DNA of 25,481 nucleotides from a virus, in IMG/VR virus record IMGVR_UViG_3300005098_000446. One strand, 5' to 3'. Positions 10,540-20,589 of the stretch are shown in pieces; position 1 is the first letter of the stretch; each line of letters opens with the position of its first letter. Under the pieces are notes generated by a model, which saw only the letters and a program-made list of their open reading frames with translations, had not been told where the DNA came from and did no database searches. The translations under genes were made by a program, and so were the position numbers.

Positions 10540-10635
10540 ATTTCAATCCCGCAACGGTCTGATTTGAACGGAACACGTCCAAATAGAACAGGATAACTCT
10601 TTCAAATTTCAATCCCGCAACGGTCTGATTTGAAC
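10540..10635 (-). CRISPR. Orphan CRISPR mini-array: 2 identical 30-bp repeats and one 36-bp spacer
   Basis: Minus-strand repeat GTTCAAATCAGACCGTTGCGGGATTGAAAT at 10540-10569 and 10606-10635; spacer 10570-10605; ATTGAAAN 3' end typical of type I-B/III repeats. Confidence 0.9.
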
Positions 10636-10743: not shown

Positions 10744-10800
10744 GAAAGGTTTATATACAAGTTACATCGATGATGATGATGGTGATATCATTATCACCAT
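10744..10800 (+). promoter_or_regulatory. Promoter plus inverted repeat
   Basis: GAAAGGTTTATATA (10744-10757); ATGGTGATA-N4-TATCACCAT (10779-10800). Confidence 0.65.
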
Positions 10801-10821: not shown

Positions 10822-10977
10822 ATGCCACAAATATACGTCAAAGATGAACTCTACCATCAAATTGTAGGCACCGGGCGTGTTGAGCGCCATGATGTCCTGC
10901 AATTTATCGAAGAGGCTATAGAAGAGAAGCTCCTCGGAGCCAAACACCAAAAGGAACATAACGACCGGAGTGATTGA
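10822..10977 (+). CDS. RHH-like regulator, 51 aa (not in ORF track)
   Basis: MPQIYVKDELYHQIVGTGRVERHDVLQFIEEAIEEKL; paralogue of 18579-18731. Confidence 0.65.
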   Translation: MPQIYVKDELYHQIVGTGRVERHDVLQFIEEAIEEKLLGAKHQKEHNDRSD

Positions 10978-10978
10978 G

Positions 10979-11857
10979 ATGAAGGTTCAGATAGTTGGAT
11001 CGGGGGTTGTCGGACAGGCAACAGGACGAGGGTTGTGCGTCAAAGGTCACGATGTGACATTTGTAGATATAAACGCCGATGTATTGCGACCTCTACATGA
11101 GTCAGGATACAAGGTATCGATGTCTATCGTGAAAGATGTTGATGCAACGCTCATATCAGTACCAACACCAACAGCGAGGGGTCGGCTTGTGACCGACTAC
11201 ATTGAAGCCGCTTCCAAGTCAGTAGGACGTGCTATATCAGGCGGCGATTACCAGGTGGTGGTCATGCGTAGCACGGTCCCGCCCGGGACTGTTGAAGATG
11301 TTGTCATACCTATTTTGGAGGATGCATCAGGGATGACCGTGGGTAGAGACTTTGGAGTGTGTATGAACCCGGAATTCTTGATCGCGAAGACAGCCGATGA
11401 AGATTTCCTCAATGCAAAATCTTTCATCGTTGGAGAATATGATGCCAGGTCTGGCGGTGTTATGGATGAGATGTACAGACCGTGGGATGTACCGGTTATC
11501 CACATGCCGATAAAGGCAGCAGAGCTATTGAAGTACACAAGCAACGTGTTTGGAGCGCTGAAGATCACATACTTCAACATCATCGGCAAGGTTGCGGAAG
11601 GATTGGGATTGGAGGCGAGAACGTTGGTTGAGACGGTGGCTGAACACTCACATGTGTTACAGAACCCGAAGTACGGGATATATCCAGGGCAGCCCTATGG
11701 CGGCATGTGTTTCCCGAAGGACACGCTGGCATTCATTGAGTACCTCCGTTCTAATGGGACGGCAAAGTATTCGACACTGTTTGAAGCGATGCACCAGATA
11801 AACCACAGTATCGCTAAAGATACCAATGTAACGATACCGGAGTATGCGGAGGTATAG
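10979..11857 (+). CDS. UDP-glucose/GDP-mannose 6-dehydrogenase family (short form)
   Basis: GSGVVG Rossmann motif, ISVPTP, STVPPGT, NPEFL, AELLKY, catalytic YGGMCFPKD; ends without the C-terminal domain. Confidence 0.9.
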   Translation: MKVQIVGSGVVGQATGRGLCVKGHDVTFVDINADVLRPLHESGYKVSMSIVKDVDATLISVPTPTARGRLVTDYIEAASKSVGRAISGGDYQVVVMRSTVPPGTVEDVVIPILEDASGMTVGRDFGVCMNPEFLIAKTADEDFLNAKSFIVGEYDARSGGVMDEMYRPWDVPVIHMPIKAAELLKYTSNVFGALKITYFNIIGKVAEGLGLEARTLVETVAEHSHVLQNPKYGIYPGQPYGGMCFPKDTLAFIEYLRSNGTAKYSTLFEAMHQINHSIAKDTNVTIPEYAEV

Positions 11858-11859
11858 GG

Positions 11860-13161
11860 GTGCGCCTGAGGACCAGCAACCTGATCGTGGTTGTCCTTAC
11901 AATCATAGCGGTACTGATCATACCCTCGGTGTACCTGATGACAGGCGGAGGTTTCGTTGTGAAAAACGACATCAACTTCTGGGTCATCGTGGGTATTATC
12001 GGTACGATGAGTTGGACAGCATGGTTGATCAGGCGTGCATACTCCCTAAAGTACAAACCGTTTATTGGAGACCATAGCGAACCTGTTTCGGTGGTTGTAC
12101 CAATATGGCACGAGCATCCAGAAACATTCATCACATCGATTGAAAGCATCACAGTCAACCTGCGCGACGGTGACGAGATCATCTGCGTGTTCGATGCGAC
12201 CGAACACGACTGTTTGGAAGCACTCGATGATAACTACCCAGCGCAGGCATACCCGAATATAAAGAGGATTATCGTCACTGAACCAGGGAAGCGACATGCC
12301 CTCGTCAGGGGCATCAGGGAAGCGCATAACGACATCACGATTCTATGTGATTCGGATGTTGTATGGGCGCCTAATCTGGTAGAGGAGGTGCTGAAACCAT
12401 TCGCAGACCCAGCTGTTGGTGGTGTTGGAACTCGCCAGAAGGTCGCTAATGTCGAAGAAGGTTTGATGCGAAGAATTGCGATGTGGTGGTTGAATGCTAA
12501 ACTGCTCGACTACATGCCAGGGTTATCGAATAAAGGTGTAGCTGTTGTGCTATCGGGCAGGACTGCTGCGTATAGACGAAGTTACATTCTACCATTGCTC
12601 AATGACCTTGAGAACGAGTACCTATTTGGCGTGAAAGCTTTGAGTGGTGATGACGGGCGTCTAACCACGTTGGTGATGAAAGCGGGTTACAAAACAGTGT
12701 ATCAGAGCACAGCGGTGCTAACGAGTTCATTCCCGATCAAGTTCAGAGACTTTGTAAAACAGAGAGTTAGATGGGCTCGAAATAGCAATCGTTGTTATTA
12801 CCGGGCACTATTTGAGGGATGGGTGTTTAAGAAGCACCCAATCCTCCCGCTGACCATCATACATACACAGATCAGCAGTTTTACGATACTGGCACCACTT
12901 ACGGCTACACTTTACTCGGTGGTCATGGGTGAACCTCTTGTGTTCACATCGATCTTCATCTGGATAAACGTTGCACGATACATCCGTGGATACAACCACC
13001 TCAAGGAAAACCCCGGGGATGTGTTTTTGGTGCCGATTGTGACACTGTTTCTGATGGTGCTGTTCCCTGTGATAAAAGCATACTCCCTGGTCACTATGAA
13101 TAAGCAGGTGTGGCTTGGTCGAACCGAGAAACACGATGACTATAATTGGGCGGTGAAATAA
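11860..13161 (+). CDS. Processive membrane GT2 (hyaluronan synthase/NodC/Alg8-like)
   Basis: GKRHAL, DSD, LSGRTAAYR, GDDGRLT, QRVRW (QxxRW); N- and C-terminal TM segments. Confidence 0.9.
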   Translation: MRLRTSNLIVVVLTIIAVLIIPSVYLMTGGGFVVKNDINFWVIVGIIGTMSWTAWLIRRAYSLKYKPFIGDHSEPVSVVVPIWHEHPETFITSIESITVNLRDGDEIICVFDATEHDCLEALDDNYPAQAYPNIKRIIVTEPGKRHALVRGIREAHNDITILCDSDVVWAPNLVEEVLKPFADPAVGGVGTRQKVANVEEGLMRRIAMWWLNAKLLDYMPGLSNKGVAVVLSGRTAAYRRSYILPLLNDLENEYLFGVKALSGDDGRLTTLVMKAGYKTVYQSTAVLTSSFPIKFRDFVKQRVRWARNSNRCYYRALFEGWVFKKHPILPLTIIHTQISSFTILAPLTATLYSVVMGEPLVFTSIFIWINVARYIRGYNHLKENPGDVFLVPIVTLFLMVLFPVIKAYSLVTMNKQVWLGRTEKHDDYNWAVK

Positions 13162-13162
13162 G

Positions 13163-13324
13163 ATGTGCAGAAAAACCGACATTATGCGAGATATTATTCT
13201 CGCAGCAGAAACAATAAAGAGAGAGGCGCTACACGCTGGTCTGTCGAATAACAGGGTTGTCTATGATGAATGTGTGTACATTGTAGACATGGCGCAGACC
13301 CTGATCAATGAGGAGGGGTTATGA
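13163..13324 (+). CDS. Hypothetical 53-aa protein (not in ORF track)
   Basis: MCRKTDIMRDIILAAETIKREALHAGLSNNRVVYDECVYIVDMAQTLINEEGL; fills the gap with an ATGA overlap. Confidence 0.5.
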   Translation: MCRKTDIMRDIILAAETIKREALHAGLSNNRVVYDECVYIVDMAQTLINEEGL

Positions 13325-15222
13325 CCCAGCGAACAGTGACCCGAATCGTCCTCCTGGCGATGGTCATTGGGATGGTCGTGACGCTGATATTCATGGCAAC
13401 CGGACACGCCGAAAGTTACGCGGTGACACCAGAGATCGCTATCGAGAAGGGTACCAAGATCATCGATACGCTGAAGGTTGGGTACCAATCATTTGAAGCG
13501 CAGGTAGGCGACGAAGCCAGACTGGTAACGATGCTGTCGGTGCTGGACACATATATGCGAGACAATCGTGACGCTCCTGTGAATGATATCGATGACGATC
13601 TTGCCGTGTTTGCGATTGACTGTAAGGAGTATCTCGATTCGCTTGAAGAGAAAGGGGTCACGCCTACTGCAATAGATCGGAGAATCGAGTTCTTCTATAA
13701 GGCTGCTGTTGATTACAGGAACCGGAAGGTATCGCCCGTAAACACGATCTATGTAGGCACAGATACCAAGAAGGAGATCGAAGAGTCGAAGAATAAGGAT
13801 TTCGATGTTGTATATGACACAGACAACAACGTCTTGCACTTGTTCCGAAACGGGTCGACCGAGGAGGTTACCCTGAATGATATCTTCTACAAGATTCAAG
13901 ACAACGGGATGACCCTGTTGTACAGGGAATCACCCGATGTATGGATTTTGAAGACCACTATAAGCGTGGAACCTGGTATGCGGTTGGTAATCAAAAACCC
14001 GAAGCCGACCACTTACCTGTGGTTGAAGTTAGCGAATTGTGGCAGCAGTCCGAGCCGGATAATCGTTTATGGCGAGCTGGTGATGGACGCAGTGAGAGTG
14101 TCTTCATGGGACCCGGTTGCCGATACGTTCATGATGGATCCAACATCGCCTAGGGGCGAGATCAAGTTCATCGGTGGAAGTGGAATTGTACAGCACTGCC
14201 GCATAGAACATATAGGATATGCTAGTGCAAGCCGTCAGACGCACGGCATCACAACCATCGATTGCACAGACGTTAAAATATACGACAACACGATAGTCGG
14301 AGGATTCCAGGGAATCAACATCCAGCACAGCAGTGGTGTTATTGTCAGGGGCAATGTGATCGATGAGCCATTCGATACTGGCATACTGTTGGAAAACGGA
14401 TCGGTGAATTGTGACCTGTTATCAAACATCGTTAATGCATCTGGAAGGCATGGAATCATGGTCTTTGACCGGTGTCATGATTGCGATGTATCACTTAACA
14501 CCCTGTCGAACAATGTAGGGCACGGCATAAAGGTGTTTAAATGGTGTCACGATCTGGGAATAGATCAGAACATCGCTAAGGATAACATGAGAAACGCTAT
14601 TGCCGTTTTCGCCTGCGAAAATTTGACAATCAGCGATAACCTTGTGACCAATGGTTCGGGTATTTTCGTGTCTCACAAATCTGATGGCGTCACCATCATT
14701 GAAAACCGACTCGTCAACACAACTACTGCGATCGCGTTGATCGGGACGTCTGATGAACCACAGAAGTTTATAGAGGCAATTGATGTTTCTTACAATGAGT
14801 TCGAGATATACTCGGAGTATAACATCGTTGAAAGCATGTATGGTGACGTGACTCACTGTTTGGTGAAAAATAATGACATCAGGGTGTGTTCGCGTGAAGG
14901 CATAAAACTTTTCCACGCGCACCACAACGATGTCGATCACAACACCATTGTTGGCAGTGAAAAGTATGGGATATTGTTGATCGGATCATGGTACAACAGA
15001 TTCGTGGAAAACGATGTCGGGTCAGCAGGGAAAGCTAAATACGGTGCCATCAGCAACTCTTATGAAAATCACATGGTGAAGCATGGGGTAGAATACACAT
15101 TGACAGACAGGGGTTGCGTTGTTTCTGATGTCGATGCCAACGGAGACGGGTGTGTGAACGCCAATGAACTTGGTCTATTGGTGTCGTATATAATTGAATC
15201 GATCATGAGTTGGTTTATATGA
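13321..15222 (+). CDS. Secreted/anchored right-handed beta-helix protein, AlgG/NosD-like, with C-terminal EF-hand/dockerin-like motif
   Basis: N-terminal hydrophobic segment; GELVMDAVRVSSWD; repeated xGIx...N units; DVDANGDGCVNANEL. Confidence 0.8.
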   Translation: MTQRTVTRIVLLAMVIGMVVTLIFMATGHAESYAVTPEIAIEKGTKIIDTLKVGYQSFEAQVGDEARLVTMLSVLDTYMRDNRDAPVNDIDDDLAVFAIDCKEYLDSLEEKGVTPTAIDRRIEFFYKAAVDYRNRKVSPVNTIYVGTDTKKEIEESKNKDFDVVYDTDNNVLHLFRNGSTEEVTLNDIFYKIQDNGMTLLYRESPDVWILKTTISVEPGMRLVIKNPKPTTYLWLKLANCGSSPSRIIVYGELVMDAVRVSSWDPVADTFMMDPTSPRGEIKFIGGSGIVQHCRIEHIGYASASRQTHGITTIDCTDVKIYDNTIVGGFQGINIQHSSGVIVRGNVIDEPFDTGILLENGSVNCDLLSNIVNASGRHGIMVFDRCHDCDVSLNTLSNNVGHGIKVFKWCHDLGIDQNIAKDNMRNAIAVFACENLTISDNLVTNGSGIFVSHKSDGVTIIENRLVNTTTAIALIGTSDEPQKFIEAIDVSYNEFEIYSEYNIVESMYGDVTHCLVKNNDIRVCSREGIKLFHAHHNDVDHNTIVGSEKYGILLIGSWYNRFVENDVGSAGKAKYGAISNSYENHMVKHGVEYTLTDRGCVVSDVDANGDGCVNANELGLLVSYIIESIMSWFI

Positions 15223-16128
15223 AAACAATATTAAAAACAGTTGCGATTATATTGTTAATCGCATTACCAGTGACTGCACTGGTTGGTATAGGAGATGTGA
15301 ATGGTGATGGACATATCACCATATCAGATGCAATCATGGCTTTACAGATGTCGGCTGGAAGCCGTGAGCCGGATACGTCAACCGCGGACATGGACCGTGA
15401 TGGCAGAGTAACGTCAGTGGATGCGCTTATAATAAACAAGGTAGCCACCACTGCAGTACCGACGCCAACGTTGACACCCACGCCAGACGACGAGACGGAC
15501 CACATAGTATGGAAATCCCCGTTCGATGTACAAGAGTTTGATGGAACCGGTAAAGGTTGTTGCCAATACCCACACAAGCCGGAGTACGATATCGAAGACG
15601 AGTTCACAATCCGGATGTGGTTCAGGCGCGACGTGTTCAACAAAGAACAGTTCTTCATCTCAAACGGGAACTGGAAAAAGAAGCTCGGATGGAGACTTAT
15701 GGTCAAGCAGACGAAGCCTCCGTATCAGTATGAGCAGATACAGTTCGACGTGGGCGATGGCAGGGACCTCAACTACTACAAGACCTTGCAGGGAGGGGAT
15801 CACCGACAGCAAATGGCACTGCATCGTCGTTGTCTTCAACGCAAACAAGATATACGTGGACTCAAAAGGCACACCGACACATGGCGCACTCATCCTCGAT
15901 GGGAAGGCTGATTACTACATGGCACGCAGCAACAAAAAGAAGCCTGCGATCAGTGAGGTGAAGCCGTATGGGAAAGAGATGTACATCGGCAGACACTTCT
16001 GCGATGGGAAGTTCTTCTTCACAGGCGCGATGGCTAACATCGAAATGCTTGATATTGATATAGGCATAGACGGTGGAATCGAGTACTACGAAGATACCAA
16101 AGACCAGTACCCCCCGACAACAGCATAA
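15219..16128 (+). pseudogene. Signal peptide + dockerin + Pro/Thr linker + LamG-like domain, frameshifted near 15794
   Basis: GDVNGDGHITISDA...DMDRDGRVTSVDA; the LamG-like sequence continues as ITDSKWHCIVVVF in the +1 frame (ORF 15526-16128). Confidence 0.75.
15703..15793 (+). repeat. 91-bp perfect repeat, copy 1
   Basis: TCAAGCAGACG...CCTTGCAGGG identical to 18089-18179. Confidence 0.95.
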
Positions 16129-16129
16129 C

Positions 16130-16180
16130 CGACCCTATAAGGGGGTCGTTTTTCTTTTTTTCTGTTTTCTGTTTCTTTTC
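16130..16180 (+). terminator. Hairpin plus T-rich tract
   Basis: CGACCCT-ATAAG-GGGGTCG followed by TTTTTCTTTTTTT. Confidence 0.7.
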
Positions 16181-16190
16181 TCAACGACGA

Positions 16191-16232
16191 CGAAAGGTTT
16201 ATATATAACCTCATCACCATCAATGATGGTGA
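16191..16232 (+). promoter_or_regulatory. Promoter plus perfect palindrome
   Basis: CGAAAGGTTTATATATAA, then TCACCATCA-A-TGATGGTGA (16214-16232). Confidence 0.7.
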
Positions 16233-16298
16233 CACCATGTCCACGCGACACAGGTGTCACAAACAACAACAGAACAACAAATAGGAGGACTGAAACGA

Positions 16299-17501
16299 AT
16301 GAACTCGAAACCTATAGCAATGTTCATACTGATCGTCGCGGTCAGTATGATATTCGTTGGAAGCGCGACAGCAGCGAGGTACTATGTGAATCCTGGAGAT
16401 AGTATCCAGGCAGCAATCAATGGAGCAGATGACGGGGATACCATCATACTGAATGATGGTAACTACACAGAGAATGTGATCGTTAACAAGAGCGTTGCGA
16501 TCATATCAAAAGGTGTCGATGAGTATTACAGTGAAAACGTCGATGAATATACCAGGTACTGGATATTCTGGTGGCGATACGTCTCATCACATAATTATAC
16601 CTATGAGAACGATGGATCGGTCACTGTGTCGGCATTGAACCCACGGCATAGCATATTCACGGTTGAGTCAGATGATGTGACCATCATGAATATCCAGACG
16701 GAAGAGGAGTCATCTGGGGTATATACCACGTACTACAACTACTGGTTGCCACAATGGAACTTTTACCCAAGAAACAAGAATGTTACATATTGGGAGTATT
16801 CGTGTTTTGACAACCCGATGGGTCTCACCGGAGCGTCTAAGAGTGACGCAGCCAGCATTGAAGTTATTGGCGCAGATGGGACACAACTCATCAATCTGGT
16901 CATATACAACAATGATAACGGTATCAAACTCATTGATGCAACAGATGTGACAATCGAAGATGTCCAGATAAGTGATAGCGACAAAGAAGGGATAACCGCA
17001 TCTGGCTGCGATGGTGTATACATACACGACTGCACAATAGTTGATTCCGGAAAGCGTGGCATCGAGATAGATGATTCTGTGGACGTTGATATGGAACATG
17101 TGCTCGTTCTCAACAGTGATAAGAGCGGTATTGATCTATCATCAGTTACCGGTGTAAGCATGTACAATGTGGTTGCAGATGGAGCTGGTAAGAACGCAAT
17201 ATGCCTTGATCAATGCACCGACATGGACATTGAATGCGGTGCTGGACTGAATGGTGGAAGATCCGGTCTGTACATGAACTATTGTGATGATGGTTACGTT
17301 GGTTGCAATGAGTTTGCCGACAACGATAACTACGGCATGAAAATCATGTACACAAACAACGTGGTATTCGACACCAACGATGCTCACGACAACGGCGAGG
17401 ATGTGAAGGAACATGCTGATGGGGCATCAACCAACACATGGATATCAGACCCGGATGGCTGTGAATGCGACGACACCTCTGTACCAAACGAACCAGAATA
17501 G
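16299..17501 (+). CDS. Secreted right-handed beta-helix (NosD/pectin-lyase-like) protein
   Basis: Signal peptide; YVNPGDSIQAAINGADDGDTIILNDGNYTENVIVNKSV; repeated GI.I units; AGGAGG upstream of ATG 16299. Confidence 0.85.
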   Translation: MNSKPIAMFILIVAVSMIFVGSATAARYYVNPGDSIQAAINGADDGDTIILNDGNYTENVIVNKSVAIISKGVDEYYSENVDEYTRYWIFWWRYVSSHNYTYENDGSVTVSALNPRHSIFTVESDDVTIMNIQTEEESSGVYTTYYNYWLPQWNFYPRNKNVTYWEYSCFDNPMGLTGASKSDAASIEVIGADGTQLINLVIYNNDNGIKLIDATDVTIEDVQISDSDKEGITASGCDGVYIHDCTIVDSGKRGIEIDDSVDVDMEHVLVLNSDKSGIDLSSVTGVSMYNVVADGAGKNAICLDQCTDMDIECGAGLNGGRSGLYMNYCDDGYVGCNEFADNDNYGMKIMYTNNVVFDTNDAHDNGEDVKEHADGASTNTWISDPDGCECDDTSVPNEPE

Positions 17502-17512
17502 ATAGACAGCGA

Positions 17513-17540
17513 TGAGCCTTCGGGCTCACTCTCTTTTTTT
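17513..17540 (+). terminator. UUCG hairpin plus T tract
   Basis: TGAGCC-TTCG-GGCTCA...TTTTTTT. Confidence 0.75.
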
Positions 17541-17589
17541 CCGTAACTTTTAATAGATCGACATCACCAACAATACCATTGGTGATAAC

Positions 17590-18491
17590 ATGACTATAAT
17601 TAGCAGAGTTGAAGTTAGGAAAGTGGATGATAACAGCGCGCAGGTAAGGTGCCGGACGAACGATCGCTGTATCGTCGAATGCCTCATCACTGACGATTTA
17701 TCGAAGCCACTCAATGATTGGGGGATTATGAGCGATCCCCGTAAGAGGAGGAGCCACCGATTCAATTGGGAAGACCTCACACCAGGTACAACCTACCACT
17801 ATACACTCAGATGCGATGGTTGTGAAAAAACCGATGTTCAGACTTTCGCAACAACTGGAAGTACACCGGGACCAGTGCCACCAACACCCACGCCAACCGA
17901 CTTCGTGATGGACACACGGTATTTCGATGGCGATGGCGGGCAGTACGGTATCTGGGAGGACGACCCGAAGCTGGACATCACCGGTCCAAAAACATTCCTG
18001 TGTTGGTTCCGTCGCGACGTATTCAACCTCCAGCAGTTCCTGTTATCAAAGGGTCACTGGGGAGACAGGATTGGCTGGAGATATATGATCAAGCAGACGA
18101 AGCCTCCGTATCAGTATGAGCAGATACAGTTCGACGTGGGCGATGGCAGGGACCTCAACTACTACAAGACCTTGCAGGGGACTCAAAAGACCACTTCACG
18201 GCATTTGTGTTCAACCCGGACAAGATATACACGGACTCGAAGGGTGTAGACACGCATGGTTTCTTACAGCTCGATGGAGACCCTGATAAATACTACATGG
18301 CGCGTAGCGGAGATACATTGATCTCGCGCGTGAAACCGTACCGGAGAGAGATGTACGTCGGCAGGCACTTCTGTGAGGGCAAGTTCTATTTCGCGGGAAT
18401 GATTTACTTCGCAAGGATCATTGACGACGATATTGGGAAGGACGGCACAGTCGATTTCTACAATCGGACGAAACATCTGTACAACGTCTGA
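17590..18491 (+). pseudogene. FN3-like domain + Pro/Thr linker + LamG-like domain, frameshifted near 18180
   Basis: HRFNWEDLTPGTTYHYTL (FN3-like); the LamG-like sequence continues as DSKDHFTAFVFNPDKIY in the -1 frame (ORF 18207-18491). Confidence 0.7.
18089..18179 (+). repeat. 91-bp perfect repeat, copy 2
   Basis: Identical to 15703-15793. Confidence 0.95.
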
Positions 18492-18578: not shown

Positions 18579-18731
18579 ATGCCACAGGTATACATCCGAG
18601 AAGGAACGTATCAGAAGATCATAGACTCAGGGGTAATGAAGAGAGAGGACATACGTGATTTTGTGAACGATGCGATCGATGCCGTGATTAAATCGAAGGA
18701 ACAGGGAGATTCGCAACAGGCGTCACAATGA
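18579..18731 (+). CDS. RHH-like regulator, 50 aa (not in ORF track)
   Basis: MPQVYIREGTYQKIIDSGVMKREDIRDFVNDAIDAVIK; paralogue of 10822-10977. Confidence 0.65.
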   Translation: MPQVYIREGTYQKIIDSGVMKREDIRDFVNDAIDAVIKSKEQGDSQQASQ

Positions 18732-18885: not shown

Positions 18886-19236
18886 TCATATCTGGTGCCG
18901 CTGCCTGTCCTTAAATTCTTGTTGCTTGGCAGCGTTCCAGCCCGATACTGGCTGATAATACCCTGTCACTCGTGAAAGTTGCTCAACGCAGTGGTTGTTG
19001 CAATCCGGGCACATGGGGTTCCCGCATAATGGGCACACCGCTATTGTCGCTACATATTGTTTGTGACACTTCGCCCGATTGTGCCACACCCATAGGTTGA
19101 GGGGACAGTCCGCGGGATCATCAACTGTGATCAATTCGCCATTGTTGAAATGTTTTATCCAGGCGAGATTCCGGTCGATGAACGCTTTCCGCGGAAGCGC
19201 CATCATCTCTTTTATGTCAATCGGTTTATATTTCAT
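18886..19236 (-). CDS. Standalone NrdD C-terminal Zn-ribbon/glycyl-radical domain protein
   Basis: CPLCG...CPDC followed by SRVTGYYQPVSGWNAAKQQEFKDR. Confidence 0.8.
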   Translation of the reverse strand: MKYKPIDIKEMMALPRKAFIDRNLAWIKHFNNGELITVDDPADCPLNLWVWHNRAKCHKQYVATIAVCPLCGNPMCPDCNNHCVEQLSRVTGYYQPVSGWNAAKQQEFKDRQRHQI

Positions 19237-20589
19237 AGTACCTTGCGCAAGGAAACTCCGTTACTTGTAGCGGAGAGGAATTGCGCCTCCATAAAGCTTA
19301 TATGGTTACGTGACGTAGTTCTTATTGGTGAGACCTTGAAAACTGTAGTACTTAACTGTTTGCCGCTAACCAATAAGAAACAGCAGATACGTGATAGATT
19401 CTTTAAAGAATATCTTCGCGTTCTGAATATCACACTTAACTCCTTGCACGATGCTAAATCTTCCAATGATTTGCACCATCTAACATATTTCAACATTCGT
19501 AAAACCTCCTTTTTGCCTTCTGATATTGTTGAAGAAGCCCGGAAAGATGTCTGGGCTAAACGTAAGACTGTTAAGAATAAATTTAAACGATGCTCCATTC
19601 GACTTAACAAAAGATGGTTTAAGTTTTTCACAACGGATCGAGCAACTCCCTGTTTCAAGATCACCTACGCTCCACATAAAACCTTTACTATCCCTATAGC
19701 CATCGACGGCAGTTATGATCGATTTAATCAGTTCCTTAATGCTGGTTGGGTCATCAAGACTATATCCCTTCTTGATGATAAGATTGCAGTTGCCATCGAC
19801 AAAGAGTTTGATGTTCCCGACCCACTCAGCAGGTATGTTATTGGTGTTGATGTCGGTTCGACCACTCTCGCCGCGATAACTGTTTTTGACACCCTCAAAA
19901 ACCGTGTTGTCAAACAGCTTTACTTGGGTAGAGATGTTGCTATTAGACAACACAAATTTGTGGATCGGCGCGCTTTGCTCCAAAGCAAGGCTGACAAAGG
20001 GTCTGATCAAGCGAAGAAGAGTCTCAAACGACTTGCTAACAAACAATTCAACTTTGTCAAGACCCGTAGTGGTCAAATTGCTAAAGAGATTGTAAATCTT
20101 GCGGTTGAATACAATGCATCTGTCGCCATTGAGAAACTTACCATTAGAGGCAGGAAACACCAATTTAACAAGACTGCCAACCGAAAGATAAATACGATTC
20201 CATACGCGCAGTTTAGAGACTTTCTCGTGTCGGACTGTGTTGAGCATGGAGTGTATCTTGATCAGATTGACCCATACCACACCTCGAAGTGGTGTCCTTA
20301 CTGCGGTGCAGTGAACAAAGGACATGCCTCGTCTAACTACGCTTTGTATAAGTGTAAAGGGTGCGGTCGGGTTGTCAACAGCGATAGGAAAGCGTCCCAT
20401 GCTGTTGCTATCAAATCGGCTTTGGTGCGGGAACAAATACAAGGTCTCACCAACCTTTTTTCCCAGTTTACCAAAGCTGGAGTTGCTGTAAACCATCTCT
20501 TCCGTCCAGGTGATAAGGTTTTGAGTTGTGCTGTGCATGATATCAATCCTTTGATGGAAAGCCCCGTGTCTTGACACGGGGTAGTTTAC
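19237..20589 (+). mobile_element. IS200/IS605-family tnpB-only (IS1341-like) element
   Basis: LE hairpin CTCCGTTAC-TT-GTAGCGGAG (19256-19275) preceded by GAAA, with TTCAT at 19232-19236. RE hairpin CCCCGTGTC-TT-GACACGGGG (20562-20581) preceded by AAAG and ending TTAC (20586-20589). AT-richer than flanks; no tnpA. Confidence 0.85.
19336..20574 (+). CDS. tnpB: IS-encoded TnpB nuclease (~412 aa)
   Basis: GVDVG, AIEKL, TSKWCPYC...CKGC, NSDRKAS; TTG start after GGTGA. Confidence 0.9.
   Translation: MKTVVLNCLPLTNKKQQIRDRFFKEYLRVLNITLNSLHDAKSSNDLHHLTYFNIRKTSFLPSDIVEEARKDVWAKRKTVKNKFKRCSIRLNKRWFKFFTTDRATPCFKITYAPHKTFTIPIAIDGSYDRFNQFLNAGWVIKTISLLDDKIAVAIDKEFDVPDPLSRYVIGVDVGSTTLAAITVFDTLKNRVVKQLYLGRDVAIRQHKFVDRRALLQSKADKGSDQAKKSLKRLANKQFNFVKTRSGQIAKEIVNLAVEYNASVAIEKLTIRGRKHQFNKTANRKINTIPYAQFRDFLVSDCVEHGVYLDQIDPYHTSKWCPYCGAVNKGHASSNYALYKCKGCGRVVNSDRKASHAVAIKSALVREQIQGLTNLFSQFTKAGVAVNHLFRPGDKVLSCAVHDINPLMESPVS

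What the first reader, a model, noticed from the sequence alone, without database searches (positions are those of the whole stretch)
10979..15222. Exopolysaccharide synthesis cassette on an apparent archaeal virus or mobile element
Seen: one operon with a nucleotide-sugar 6-dehydrogenase, a processive QxxRW GT2, a 53-aa ORF and an exported beta-helix protein. Established: this trio mirrors alginate AlgD/Alg8/AlgG, and chlorovirus PBCV-1 encodes hyaluronan synthase plus UDP-glucose dehydrogenase to coat infected cells. Inference: the element makes its host produce a uronic-acid polymer, which could serve superinfection exclusion, aggregation in consortia or virion coating. I am not aware of a characterised archaeal-virus example but cannot check the literature here.
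Basis: partly seen in the sequence, partly recalled or inferred. Interest (0 to 1): 0.75.

Follow-up and report, generated by a model that had tools for sequence, protein, structure and literature searches.

The report
Hyaluronan-synthase-type sugar-polymer cassette on archaeal element
An uncultivated archaeal mobile element (virus or plasmid) from hydrothermal-vent sediments carries a compact operon that most likely makes and remodels a secreted acidic sugar polymer; related operons sit in the chromosomes of many actinobacteria, so the machinery is of a known kind and only its carrier and some details are new.

Summary
One + strand operon (10822-18491) encodes:
- a small RHH-like ORF;
- a 295-aa sugar 6-dehydrogenase;
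- a 433-aa GT2;
- a 53-aa ORF;
- a secreted beta-helix protein (BH1);
- a dockerin-LamG protein;
- a second secreted beta-helix protein (BH2);
- an FN3-LamG protein.

The GT2 is hyaluronan-synthase-like by sequence and by fold: the top 13 PDB fold hits are all HAS. I could not compare it with Alg8. The dehydrogenase's best solved relative is AlgD, and BH1's is AlgG. Two defining features are missing. The dehydrogenase lacks the whole nucleotide-binding C-terminal domain; this loss is conserved and is shared by a large family of short forms. BH1 lacks the epimerase DPHD motif.

Related modules are chromosomal and widespread. About 70 Actinomycetota loci carry GT2, an AlgG-like protein, a PL31-like lyase and a full-length UGDH. 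Soil Bathyarchaeia carry the short dehydrogenase next to the GT2.

The window is a whole 25.5-kb contig. It holds orphan methylases, a dCMP deaminase, a cas-less CRISPR mini-array whose spacers turn over, a polymorphic IS, and mostly ORFs without a family. No capsid, terminase or replication hallmark was found. It is therefore probably a mobile element, but a virus is not shown.

Verdict: a new variant of a known kind, of moderate interest.

The parts
10750..10757 (+). TTTATATA box with a purine-rich BRE-like stretch just upstream, about 65 nt before the first ORF of the operon; candidate archaeal promoter
   Evidence: Read directly from the sequence; not tested.
10822..10977 (+). 51-aa ORF (MPQIYVKDELY...), ribbon-helix-helix-like by eye; overlaps the dehydrogenase start. 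Paralogue of 18579-18731
   Evidence: no Pfam hit.
10970..11857 (+). Short (295 aa) NDP-sugar 6-dehydrogenase: NAD-binding and central domains only, catalytic residues kept, no C-terminal nucleotide-binding domain
   Evidence: Length of 290-296 aa is conserved in relatives down to 45% identity.
11860..13161 (+). Membrane-integrated GT2 synthase of the hyaluronan synthase / NodC / chitin synthase type (DSD, GDDGRLT, QRVRW, WLGR; 2 N-terminal and about 4 C-terminal membrane helices)
13163..13324 (+). 53-aa soluble ORF, tightly packed between the GT2 and BH1; lineage-specific, function unknown
   Evidence: absent at this position in L004; no family.
13321..15222 (+). BH1: signal peptide, four-helix bundle, right-handed beta-helix closest to AlgG, dockerin-like C-terminal segment; the DPHD motif is replaced by LLEN
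15210..16128 (+). Signal peptide + type I dockerin + Laminin_G_3 (ConA-like) protein. Split in the window by 4 extra bases near 15790; intact (304 aa) in sister assemblies
16254..17501 (+). BH2: second secreted beta-helix protein (likely start at Met16). Weak profile match to an alginate epimerase/lyase; no DPHD motif
17590..18491 (+). FN3-like + LamG paralogue without a signal peptide. Split in the window by a 7-base deletion near 18170; intact (302 aa) in L001
18579..18731 (+). 50-aa ORF (MPQVYIREGTY...), paralogue of 10822-10977; together they bracket the cassette

Best explanation
The operon is a minimal, single-membrane, synthase-dependent exopolysaccharide system carried by an archaeal mobile element.

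Proposed mechanism:
1. The cytoplasmic dehydrogenase oxidises C6 of an activated hexose, UDP-glucose or GDP-mannose, to supply a uronic-acid donor.
2. The HAS-type GT2 polymerises the sugar at the inner face of the membrane and threads the chain out through its own channel.
3. Outside the cell, the secreted AlgG-fold proteins BH1 and BH2 and the dockerin/LamG proteins bind, trim or modify the polymer and may tether it to the cell surface.

What is shown: the gene order; the family and fold of each part; the motifs present and absent; conservation of the module across relatives; and the mobile-element-like context.

What is inferred: the chemistry of the polymer; that the truncated dehydrogenase is active; what the beta-helix proteins do; and the benefit to the element (masking of the host surface, aggregation or matrix formation).
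For: GT2:
- Best PDB sequence hits are Chlorella-virus HAS at 1e-11.
- The AF2 model has pLDDT 87. Its top 13 Foldseek hits are all HAS, with TM 0.72-0.75 over the whole length including the membrane part. They rank ahead of PcManGT, BcsA and chitin synthases.
- DSD, GDDxRLT, QxxRW and a W-x-x-R motif are invariant in the clade.

Dehydrogenase:
- TIGR03026 scores above its cut-off.
- T102, N133/E135, K188, N192, C247 and K250/D251 are invariant across 25 short forms.
- It sits directly upstream of the GT2 in every close relative and in four Bathyarchaeia/Thermoproteota MAGs.

Link of the GT2 to a uronate-forming enzyme and to beta-helix proteins:
- About 70 Actinomycetota loci carry GT2, BH1, BH2 and a full-length UGDH.
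- The BH1 profile matches the actinobacterial BH1 profile at 98.7% probability.
- The actinobacterial BH1 profile hits AlgE4/AlgG at 1e-10, and the actinobacterial BH2 profile hits an alginate lyase at 3e-65.
- For window BH1, AlgG takes Foldseek ranks 1-4 at E 4e-13.

Export:
- Signal peptides are present on BH1, BH2 and LamG1.

Mobile-element context:
- The window is a whole contig.
- It holds two orphan DNA methylases, a dCMP deaminase, an NrdD fragment and an HNH protein, and most ORFs have no family.
- The cas-less CRISPR mini-array carries different spacers in a 98% identical copy.
- The IS is present here and absent in L001.
- No GT2 above about 42% identity occurs in 185,579 species genomes.
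- All named TnpB relatives are archaeal.
Against: - The dehydrogenase lacks the domain that binds the nucleotide of the substrate in every characterised family member, so its substrate and activity are open.
- The best solved relatives pull in different directions: AlgD (GDP-mannose) for the dehydrogenase, but UDP-sugar-using HAS for the GT2.
- BH1 and BH2 lack the DPHD motif. BH2 is not demonstrably orthologous to the actinobacterial lyase.
- No polymer, transcript or protein was observed.
- No viral or plasmid hallmark gene was recognised, and the contig shows no terminal overlap.
Confidence: 0.6

Rival explanations
1. The GT2 makes chitin or chito-oligosaccharides (NodC-like), or another neutral polymer. 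The truncated dehydrogenase is inactive or serves another purpose.
For: The best NCBIfam model is NodC at 117 bits. JGI names in the family alternate between hyaluronan synthase and N-acetylglucosaminyltransferase. The dehydrogenase lacks its nucleotide-binding domain.
Against: The NodC score is far below its cut-off of 550. A 6-dehydrogenase is linked to this GT2 family in three distant lineages. All catalytic residues of the short dehydrogenase are invariant. The partner proteins resemble uronate-polymer enzymes.
Confidence: 0.15
2. The GT2 is a non-processive membrane glycosyltransferase, like Pyrobaculum PcManGT. It acts in lipid-linked glycan synthesis for glycosylation of S-layer or virion proteins, with an AglM-like dehydrogenase.
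For: PcManGT is Foldseek rank 14 with TM 0.74 normalised on the target and is a sequence hit at 8e-7. The AglM model scores 162 bits on the dehydrogenase.
Against: HAS hits are stronger by sequence and cover more of the query. The GDDxRLT, QxxRW and C-terminal W-x-x-R motifs and the extra C-terminal helices are shared with HAS. The AglM score is far below its cut-off of 670.
Confidence: 0.1
3. The beta-helix, LamG and FN3 proteins are virion fibre, tailspike or depolymerase proteins of a virus, not parts of the polymer pathway. Only the dehydrogenase and GT2 modify the host surface.
For: Phage tailspikes (HK620, Det7) appear among BH1 fold hits from rank 13. LamG and FN3 domains are common in virion adhesins (own knowledge).
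Against: AlgG/AlgE hits are five orders of magnitude better than the tailspike hits. BH1 has a Sec signal peptide and a dockerin-like tail. GT2-BH1-BH2 synteny is kept in about 70 bacterial chromosomes. The BH1 profiles match at 98.7%.
Confidence: 0.12
4. The contig is a variable island of an uncultivated archaeal chromosome rather than a virus or plasmid.
For: No capsid, terminase, integrase or replication gene was recognised. It is not in IMG/VR or GenBank phages. There is no terminal overlap. The homologous operons elsewhere are chromosomal.
Against: There is no core gene in 25 kb and most ORFs lack a family. The contig holds orphan methylases, a dCMP deaminase, an NrdD fragment and an HNH protein, plus a cas-less mini-array. 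It recurs at 98-99.7% identity in several vent and sediment samples. It is absent from 185,579 species genomes.
Confidence: 0.2

Closest known systems
Chlorovirus PBCV-1 hyaluronan genes: HAS a098r, UDP-glucose dehydrogenase a609l, GFAT a100r (PMC5408694)
   Same: A mobile genetic entity carries a class I HAS-type GT2 together with a uronate-forming dehydrogenase. Chlorella-virus HAS is the best solved sequence relative of the GT2.
   Different: PBCV-1 is a eukaryotic giant virus and its genes are not an operon. Its dehydrogenase is full-length, and it has no AlgG-like or LamG partners. Sequence identity to the window GT2 is only about 17-20%.
Streptococcal has operon, hasA-hasB-hasC (own knowledge)
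   Same: It is a compact synthase plus UDP-glucose dehydrogenase operon for a single-membrane cell. The synthase is of similar size (about 417 aa) and also exports the chain.
   Different: The gene order differs. There is no UDP-glucose pyrophosphorylase here, the dehydrogenase is truncated, and secreted beta-helix and lectin-like proteins are added.
Pseudomonas/Azotobacter alginate system, AlgD-Alg8-Alg44-AlgG-AlgL
   Same: The dehydrogenase's best solved relative is AlgD. BH1's best relatives are AlgG and AlgE. The logic is the same: precursor oxidation, GT2 polymerisation, then extracytoplasmic beta-helix modification.
   Different: The GT2 is HAS/NodC-type. No Alg44/PilZ, AlgK/E/X or AlgL homologue was found. 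The DPHD motif is absent from BH1 and BH2. Orthology to Alg8 could not be tested.
Actinomycetota chromosomal cluster GT2 - AlgG-like - PL31-like lyase - UDP-glucose dehydrogenase (found here; apparently uncharacterised)
   Same: The GT2 family is the same at about 41% identity. BH1 is homologous (hhalign 98.7%). A 6-dehydrogenase is linked, and two beta-helix genes follow the GT2.
   Different: The actinobacterial dehydrogenase is full-length and UDP-glucose-type. The actinobacterial second beta-helix is a clear alginate-lyase relative, whereas the window's BH2 is not. The actinobacterial clusters have no LamG or dockerin genes. They are chromosomal and broadly follow taxonomy.
Soil Bathyarchaeia/Thermoproteota short-dehydrogenase + GT2 pairs (L005-L008)
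   Same: The same short dehydrogenase sits directly upstream of the same GT2 family in archaea.
   Different: Identity is only 35% for the dehydrogenase and 41% for the GT2. No beta-helix partners are present. These pairs lie in chromosomal MAG contigs.

Membership tests
Class I hyaluronan synthase / NodC / chitin synthase clade of GT2 | GT-A fold with a DxD donor-binding motif | tested here: met
   DSD at 164-166 is invariant. Pfam GT2 models hit.
Class I hyaluronan synthase / NodC / chitin synthase clade of GT2 | GDDRxLT-type motif and QxxRW acceptor motif | tested here: met
   GDDGRLT at 263-269 and QRVRW at 301-305 align with GDDRRLT and QQTRW of Chlorella-virus HAS.
Class I hyaluronan synthase / NodC / chitin synthase clade of GT2 | Membrane-integrated architecture with interface helices and C-terminal transmembrane helices forming a channel | tested here: met
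   AF2 model pLDDT 87. The top 13 PDB fold hits are HAS, aligned over 414-470 columns with TM 0.72-0.75. This rests on a prediction only.
Class I hyaluronan synthase / NodC / chitin synthase clade of GT2 | Product is hyaluronan (alternating GlcA and GlcNAc) | not testable with these tools
   Needs biochemistry.
UDP-glucose/GDP-mannose 6-dehydrogenase family | NAD-binding N-domain and central dimerisation domain with the catalytic Cys, Lys, Asn and Asp | tested here: met
   PF03721 and PF00984 hit, and TIGR03026 scores above its cut-off. C247, K188, N192 and D251 are invariant.
UDP-glucose/GDP-mannose 6-dehydrogenase family | C-terminal nucleotide-sugar-binding domain (PF03720) | tested here: not met
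   There is no PF03720 hit. The protein ends right after the central helix and the GT2 starts 3 bases later. The same holds in 25 relatives. In genome G001, PF03720 occurs only in the full-length paralogues.
Mannuronan C5-epimerases (AlgG/AlgE) | Right-handed parallel beta-helix closest to AlgG/AlgE | tested here: met
   The profile's top hits are AlgG at 5e-4 and AlgE4. Foldseek ranks 1-8 are AlgG, AlgE4 and AlgE6.
Mannuronan C5-epimerases (AlgG/AlgE) | Catalytic DPHD motif | tested here: not met
   The column reads G-I-L-L-E-N in the window clade and G-V-V-L-H-R in actinobacterial BH1. Several distant hits keep DPH.
Bacterial alginate secretion system | Alg8 orthologue with the Alg44 PilZ co-polymerase | tested here: inconclusive
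   No PilZ or other Alg-type family appeared in any window ORF scanned. No Alg8 sequence was available for a direct comparison.
Virus (any realm) | Capsid, packaging or other virion hallmark gene | tested here: not met
   None was found by Pfam or PHROGs on about 45 ORFs. There were no matches in GenBank phages or IMG/VR. Divergent archaeal capsid proteins could escape these searches.

The most novel reading that the evidence does not exclude
The contig is part of an archaeal virus that makes its host coat itself in a hyaluronan- or alginate-like acidic polymer. That would be the first such case outside giant algal viruses. Its dehydrogenase would also represent a large, unstudied class of two-domain sugar 6-dehydrogenases that work without the canonical nucleotide-binding domain. 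They might use a different substrate, or a partner protein might hold the nucleotide.
Probability: 0.2. Interest if true: 0.8.

Novelty: new variant of a known kind. Interest (0 to 1): 0.55.

Why it matters
If the cassette is active, a mobile element of vent-sediment archaea can change what its host secretes. That bears on how archaeal aggregates and matrices form in sediments, and on how elements exclude rivals.

Two by-products may matter more:
- A four-part module (HAS-type GT2, AlgG-like protein, lyase-like beta-helix, 6-dehydrogenase) is conserved across many Actinomycetota. I found no description of it in the papers searched.
- A large family of dehydrogenases keeps every catalytic residue but lacks the nucleotide-binding domain. 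That is a clear biochemical question.

Tried and rejected
- The look-up of sequencing runs listed no RNA holder.
- Complex prediction on GT2 + dehydrogenase gave no answer, score 0.00. This is not evidence either way.
- IMG/VR scans with the GT2, with the CRISPR repeat and with the 318-aa ORF found nothing.
- Megablast of the window against GenBank phages found nothing.
- The CRISPR repeat was not found, with up to 3 mismatches, in 401 genomes of the class of the Bathyarchaeota MAG. No handle for Methanosarcinales or ANME genomes could be obtained, so the host stays unassigned.
- The Atlas gave nothing for the 318-aa ORF.
- Literature searches for an archaeal-virus hyaluronan synthase, for the actinobacterial cluster and for short dehydrogenases found no description.
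- Phage dehydrogenase hits in GenBank are few, distant and, where checked, full-length.
- BH2 orthology to the actinobacterial PL31-like lyase was rejected: only a 38-column N-cap match.
- I considered and rejected reading the LamG frameshifts as programmed, because sister assemblies are in frame.


Full report
**What is there.**
The + strand between 10822 and 18491 is one tightly packed gene string:
- A TTTATATA box lies at 10750-10757.
- A 51-aa ORF follows at 10822-10977.
- The dehydrogenase (10970-11857) follows, and the GT2 (11860-13161) starts three bases after the dehydrogenase stop.
- A 53-aa ORF (13163-13324) starts one base after the GT2 stop.
- BH1 (13321-15222) overlaps the end of the 53-aa ORF.
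- Then come a dockerin-LamG gene (15210-16128), BH2 (16254-17501) and an FN3-LamG gene (17590-18491).

The family assignments are far beyond chance.

**Relatives of the cassette.**
- The GT2 has only nine close clusters (69-99% identity), all from metagenomes. Identity then drops to about 45%.
- A metagenome scan gave two near-identical copies of the element from other samples, L001 and L002, at 98-99.7% DNA identity. It also gave two copies at 71% GT2 identity, L003 and L004.
- L004 keeps the order dehydrogenase (293 aa), GT2 (433), BH1 (622), LamG (289), BH2 (384), LamG (306). It has no room for the 53-aa ORF.
- In the close clade, contig lengths show that the dehydrogenase and GT2 always share a contig.

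**The GT2.**
- Sequence search of the PDB puts Chlorella-virus hyaluronan synthase first (1e-11). GDDGRLT aligns with GDDRRLT and QRVRW with QQTRW.
- The NodC model is the best NCBIfam hit, but far below its cut-off.
- An AlphaFold model built on 28 sequences has pLDDT 87 and pTM 0.85.
- Its 13 best PDB fold matches are all hyaluronan synthases (Xenopus HAS1 and Chlorella virus). They align over the whole chain, including the membrane helices, and rank ahead of PcManGT, BcsA and chitin synthases.
- Among predicted viral structures the best matches are GT2s of giant eukaryotic viruses. No archaeal virus appears in the top 50.
- I therefore file the GT2 in the HAS/NodC/chitin-synthase clade. Its product is unknown, and I could not compare it with Alg8.

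**The dehydrogenase.**
- It has the NAD-binding and central domains only.
- Aligned with a full-length actinobacterial enzyme, it stops right after the central helix. It also lacks about 19 residues where full-length enzymes have the FxEPGL loop.
- Every catalytic residue known from UGDH/GMD is invariant in 25 short forms: Thr, Asn/Glu, Lys, Asn, Cys and Lys/Asp. The assignment of these residues rests on my own knowledge.
- Short forms of 290-340 aa make up a large family. The Atlas lists clusters dominated by Actinomycetota, by Bathyarchaeota and by tailed viruses. That last point is a lead only.
- Its best solved relative is Pseudomonas GDP-mannose dehydrogenase AlgD (8e-48), ahead of the UDP-glucose enzymes. 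The archaeal AglM model scores similarly, so the substrate is open.
- In one Bathyarchaeota genome the missing domain is found only in the full-length paralogues, not as a separate gene.

**The beta-helix proteins.**
- BH1 has two close representatives among 1.8 billion. Everything else is a generic beta-helix match.
- The BH1 profile's top PDB hits are all mannuronan C5-epimerases, led by AlgG at 5e-4.
- Its model (pLDDT 83) shows a signal helix, a four-helix bundle, a long beta-helix and a C-terminal helix.
- AlgG takes Foldseek ranks 1-4 (E 4e-13) and AlgE4/AlgE6 take ranks 5-8. These are five orders of magnitude ahead of GH87 glucanases, phage tailspikes and PL6 lyases.
- The DPHD catalytic motif is replaced by LLEN, so an epimerase activity of the known kind is not supported.
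- BH2 gives only a weak match to an alginate epimerase/lyase.
- BH1, BH2 and LamG1 have signal peptides. LamG1 has a type I dockerin, and BH1 ends in a dockerin-like segment.

**A widespread chromosomal counterpart.**
- A scan of 185,579 species genomes found 530 relatives of the GT2, none above about 42% identity.
- In four soil Bathyarchaeota/Thermoproteota MAGs a short dehydrogenase (35% identity) lies directly upstream of the GT2.
- In about 70 Actinomycetota loci the GT2 is followed by a beta-helix protein of 600-650 aa, a second beta-helix protein of about 480 aa, and a full-length dehydrogenase. In Frankia the dehydrogenase lies upstream instead.
- Window BH1 and the actinobacterial first beta-helix are homologous: hhalign 98.7%, 344 columns, including the SWD region before the helix.
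- The actinobacterial first beta-helix profile hits AlgE4/AlgG at 1e-10. The second hits a solved alginate lyase at 3e-65.
- The actinobacterial dehydrogenase is a UDP-glucose enzyme.
- In a GT2 tree the actinobacterial sequences broadly follow families. The archaeal MAG clade and the window clade are separate long branches whose mutual order is unresolved.
- The linkage of GT2, 6-dehydrogenase and AlgG-like protein in three distant lineages is my main argument that the product contains uronic acid. It also argues that the beta-helix proteins belong to the pathway rather than to a virion.

**What carries it.**
- The window is the whole contig and has no terminal overlap.
- Besides the cassette it holds two TnpB genes, two orphan DNA methylases, a dCMP deaminase, a STAS-like gene, an NrdD C-terminal fragment, an HNH-repeat protein and HTH proteins. 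Most other ORFs match no family.
- The IS at 19237-20581 is absent from L001.
- The cas-less CRISPR array has one spacer here and four different spacers in L002.
- At least five vent or marine-sediment metagenome runs hold 70% or more of the sampled words of the stretch.
- All named relatives of the IS nuclease are archaeal. The nearest, at 83%, is from a Methanosarcinales MAG.
- No capsid, terminase, integrase or replication gene was recognised, and nothing similar is in IMG/VR or GenBank phages.
- My reading is a mobile element of an uncultivated archaeon, at about 0.8. Virus and plasmid cannot be told apart. An earlier follow-up on this window reached the same wording.

**Comparison with what is known.**
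- PBCV-1 encodes a class I HAS, a UDP-glucose dehydrogenase and GFAT, and coats infected cells with hyaluronan (PMC5408694).
- A 2026 survey of 3,708 archaeal virus genomes mentions glycosyltransferases only in general terms. It contains none of the words polysaccharide, exopolysaccharide or UDP-glucose (PMC13465236).
- I found no paper describing the actinobacterial cluster. A brown-alga study does note that the closest bacterial relatives of algal C5-epimerases are actinobacterial (10.1101/2024.04.23.590721).
- A soil tailed-phage genome, GX15bay, carries a GT2 30% identical to this one, next to annotated endoglucanase and mannanase genes.

**Verdict.**
The machinery is a recognisable synthase-dependent polysaccharide system. 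Three things are new: the carrier (an archaeal mobile element), the conserved loss of the dehydrogenase's nucleotide-binding domain, and AlgG-fold partners without the epimerase motif. I rate it a new variant of a known kind, with interest 0.55.

Noticed in passing
window 10540-10635; L002 8483-8776: The cas-less CRISPR mini-array has 2 repeats and 1 spacer in the window. In L002, an otherwise 98-99% identical copy from another sample, it has 5 repeats and 4 spacers, and none of the spacers is shared. The array therefore turns over in the element.
   Followed up: partly
window 15790 and 18170; L001 3899-4813 and 6275-7183: Both LamG genes look frameshifted in the window: 4 extra bases (AGGG) in one and 7 missing bases (GGTCACC) in the other, each at the 3' edge of the shared 91-bp core. 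Both genes are in frame in L001 (304 and 302 aa), and the first is also in frame in L002; L002 ends before the second gene. An assembly slip at the repeat, or a strain lesion, is more likely than programmed frameshifting.
   Followed up: yes
window 19237-20581: The TnpB insertion sequence is precisely absent from L001, which joins window 19236 to 20582. The insertion is recent and polymorphic.
   Followed up: partly
window 10822-10977 and 18579-18731: Two paralogous ORFs of about 50 aa (MPQ[IV]Y..., RHH-like by eye) bracket the cassette. They may be local regulators, or a trace of how the cassette was inserted.
   Followed up: no
L009-L084, e.g. L045 5902-11947: About 70 Actinomycetota genomes carry a conserved chromosomal cluster: a HAS-type GT2, an AlgG/AlgE-like beta-helix, a beta-helix with a strong match to alginate lyase 6kfn (3e-65), and a UDP-glucose dehydrogenase. 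Genera include Streptomyces, Frankia, Actinomadura, Arthrobacter and Pseudonocardia. I found no paper describing it.
   Followed up: partly
window 10970-11857 (Atlas look-up): Several Atlas clusters of two-domain short dehydrogenases (282-338 aa, no PF03720) are labelled as mostly from tailed viruses, and others as mostly from Bathyarchaeota. This is a lead only. GenBank phages hold few such genes, and those are distant.
   Followed up: partly
window 15120-15222 (BH1 residues ~600-632): The C-terminus of BH1 resembles half a type I dockerin, with weak PDB hits to CelS and GH9 dockerins. The next gene carries a full dockerin. No cohesin is in the window, so a host scaffold may be the partner.
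   Followed up: no
L085 (MK557849.1 7105-10888): The complete tailed-phage genome GX15bay from mangrove soil has a 453-aa GT2, 30% identical to the window's, followed by annotated endoglucanase and mannanase genes. This may be a bacterial-virus analogue of the synthase-plus-glycanase arrangement.
   Followed up: no
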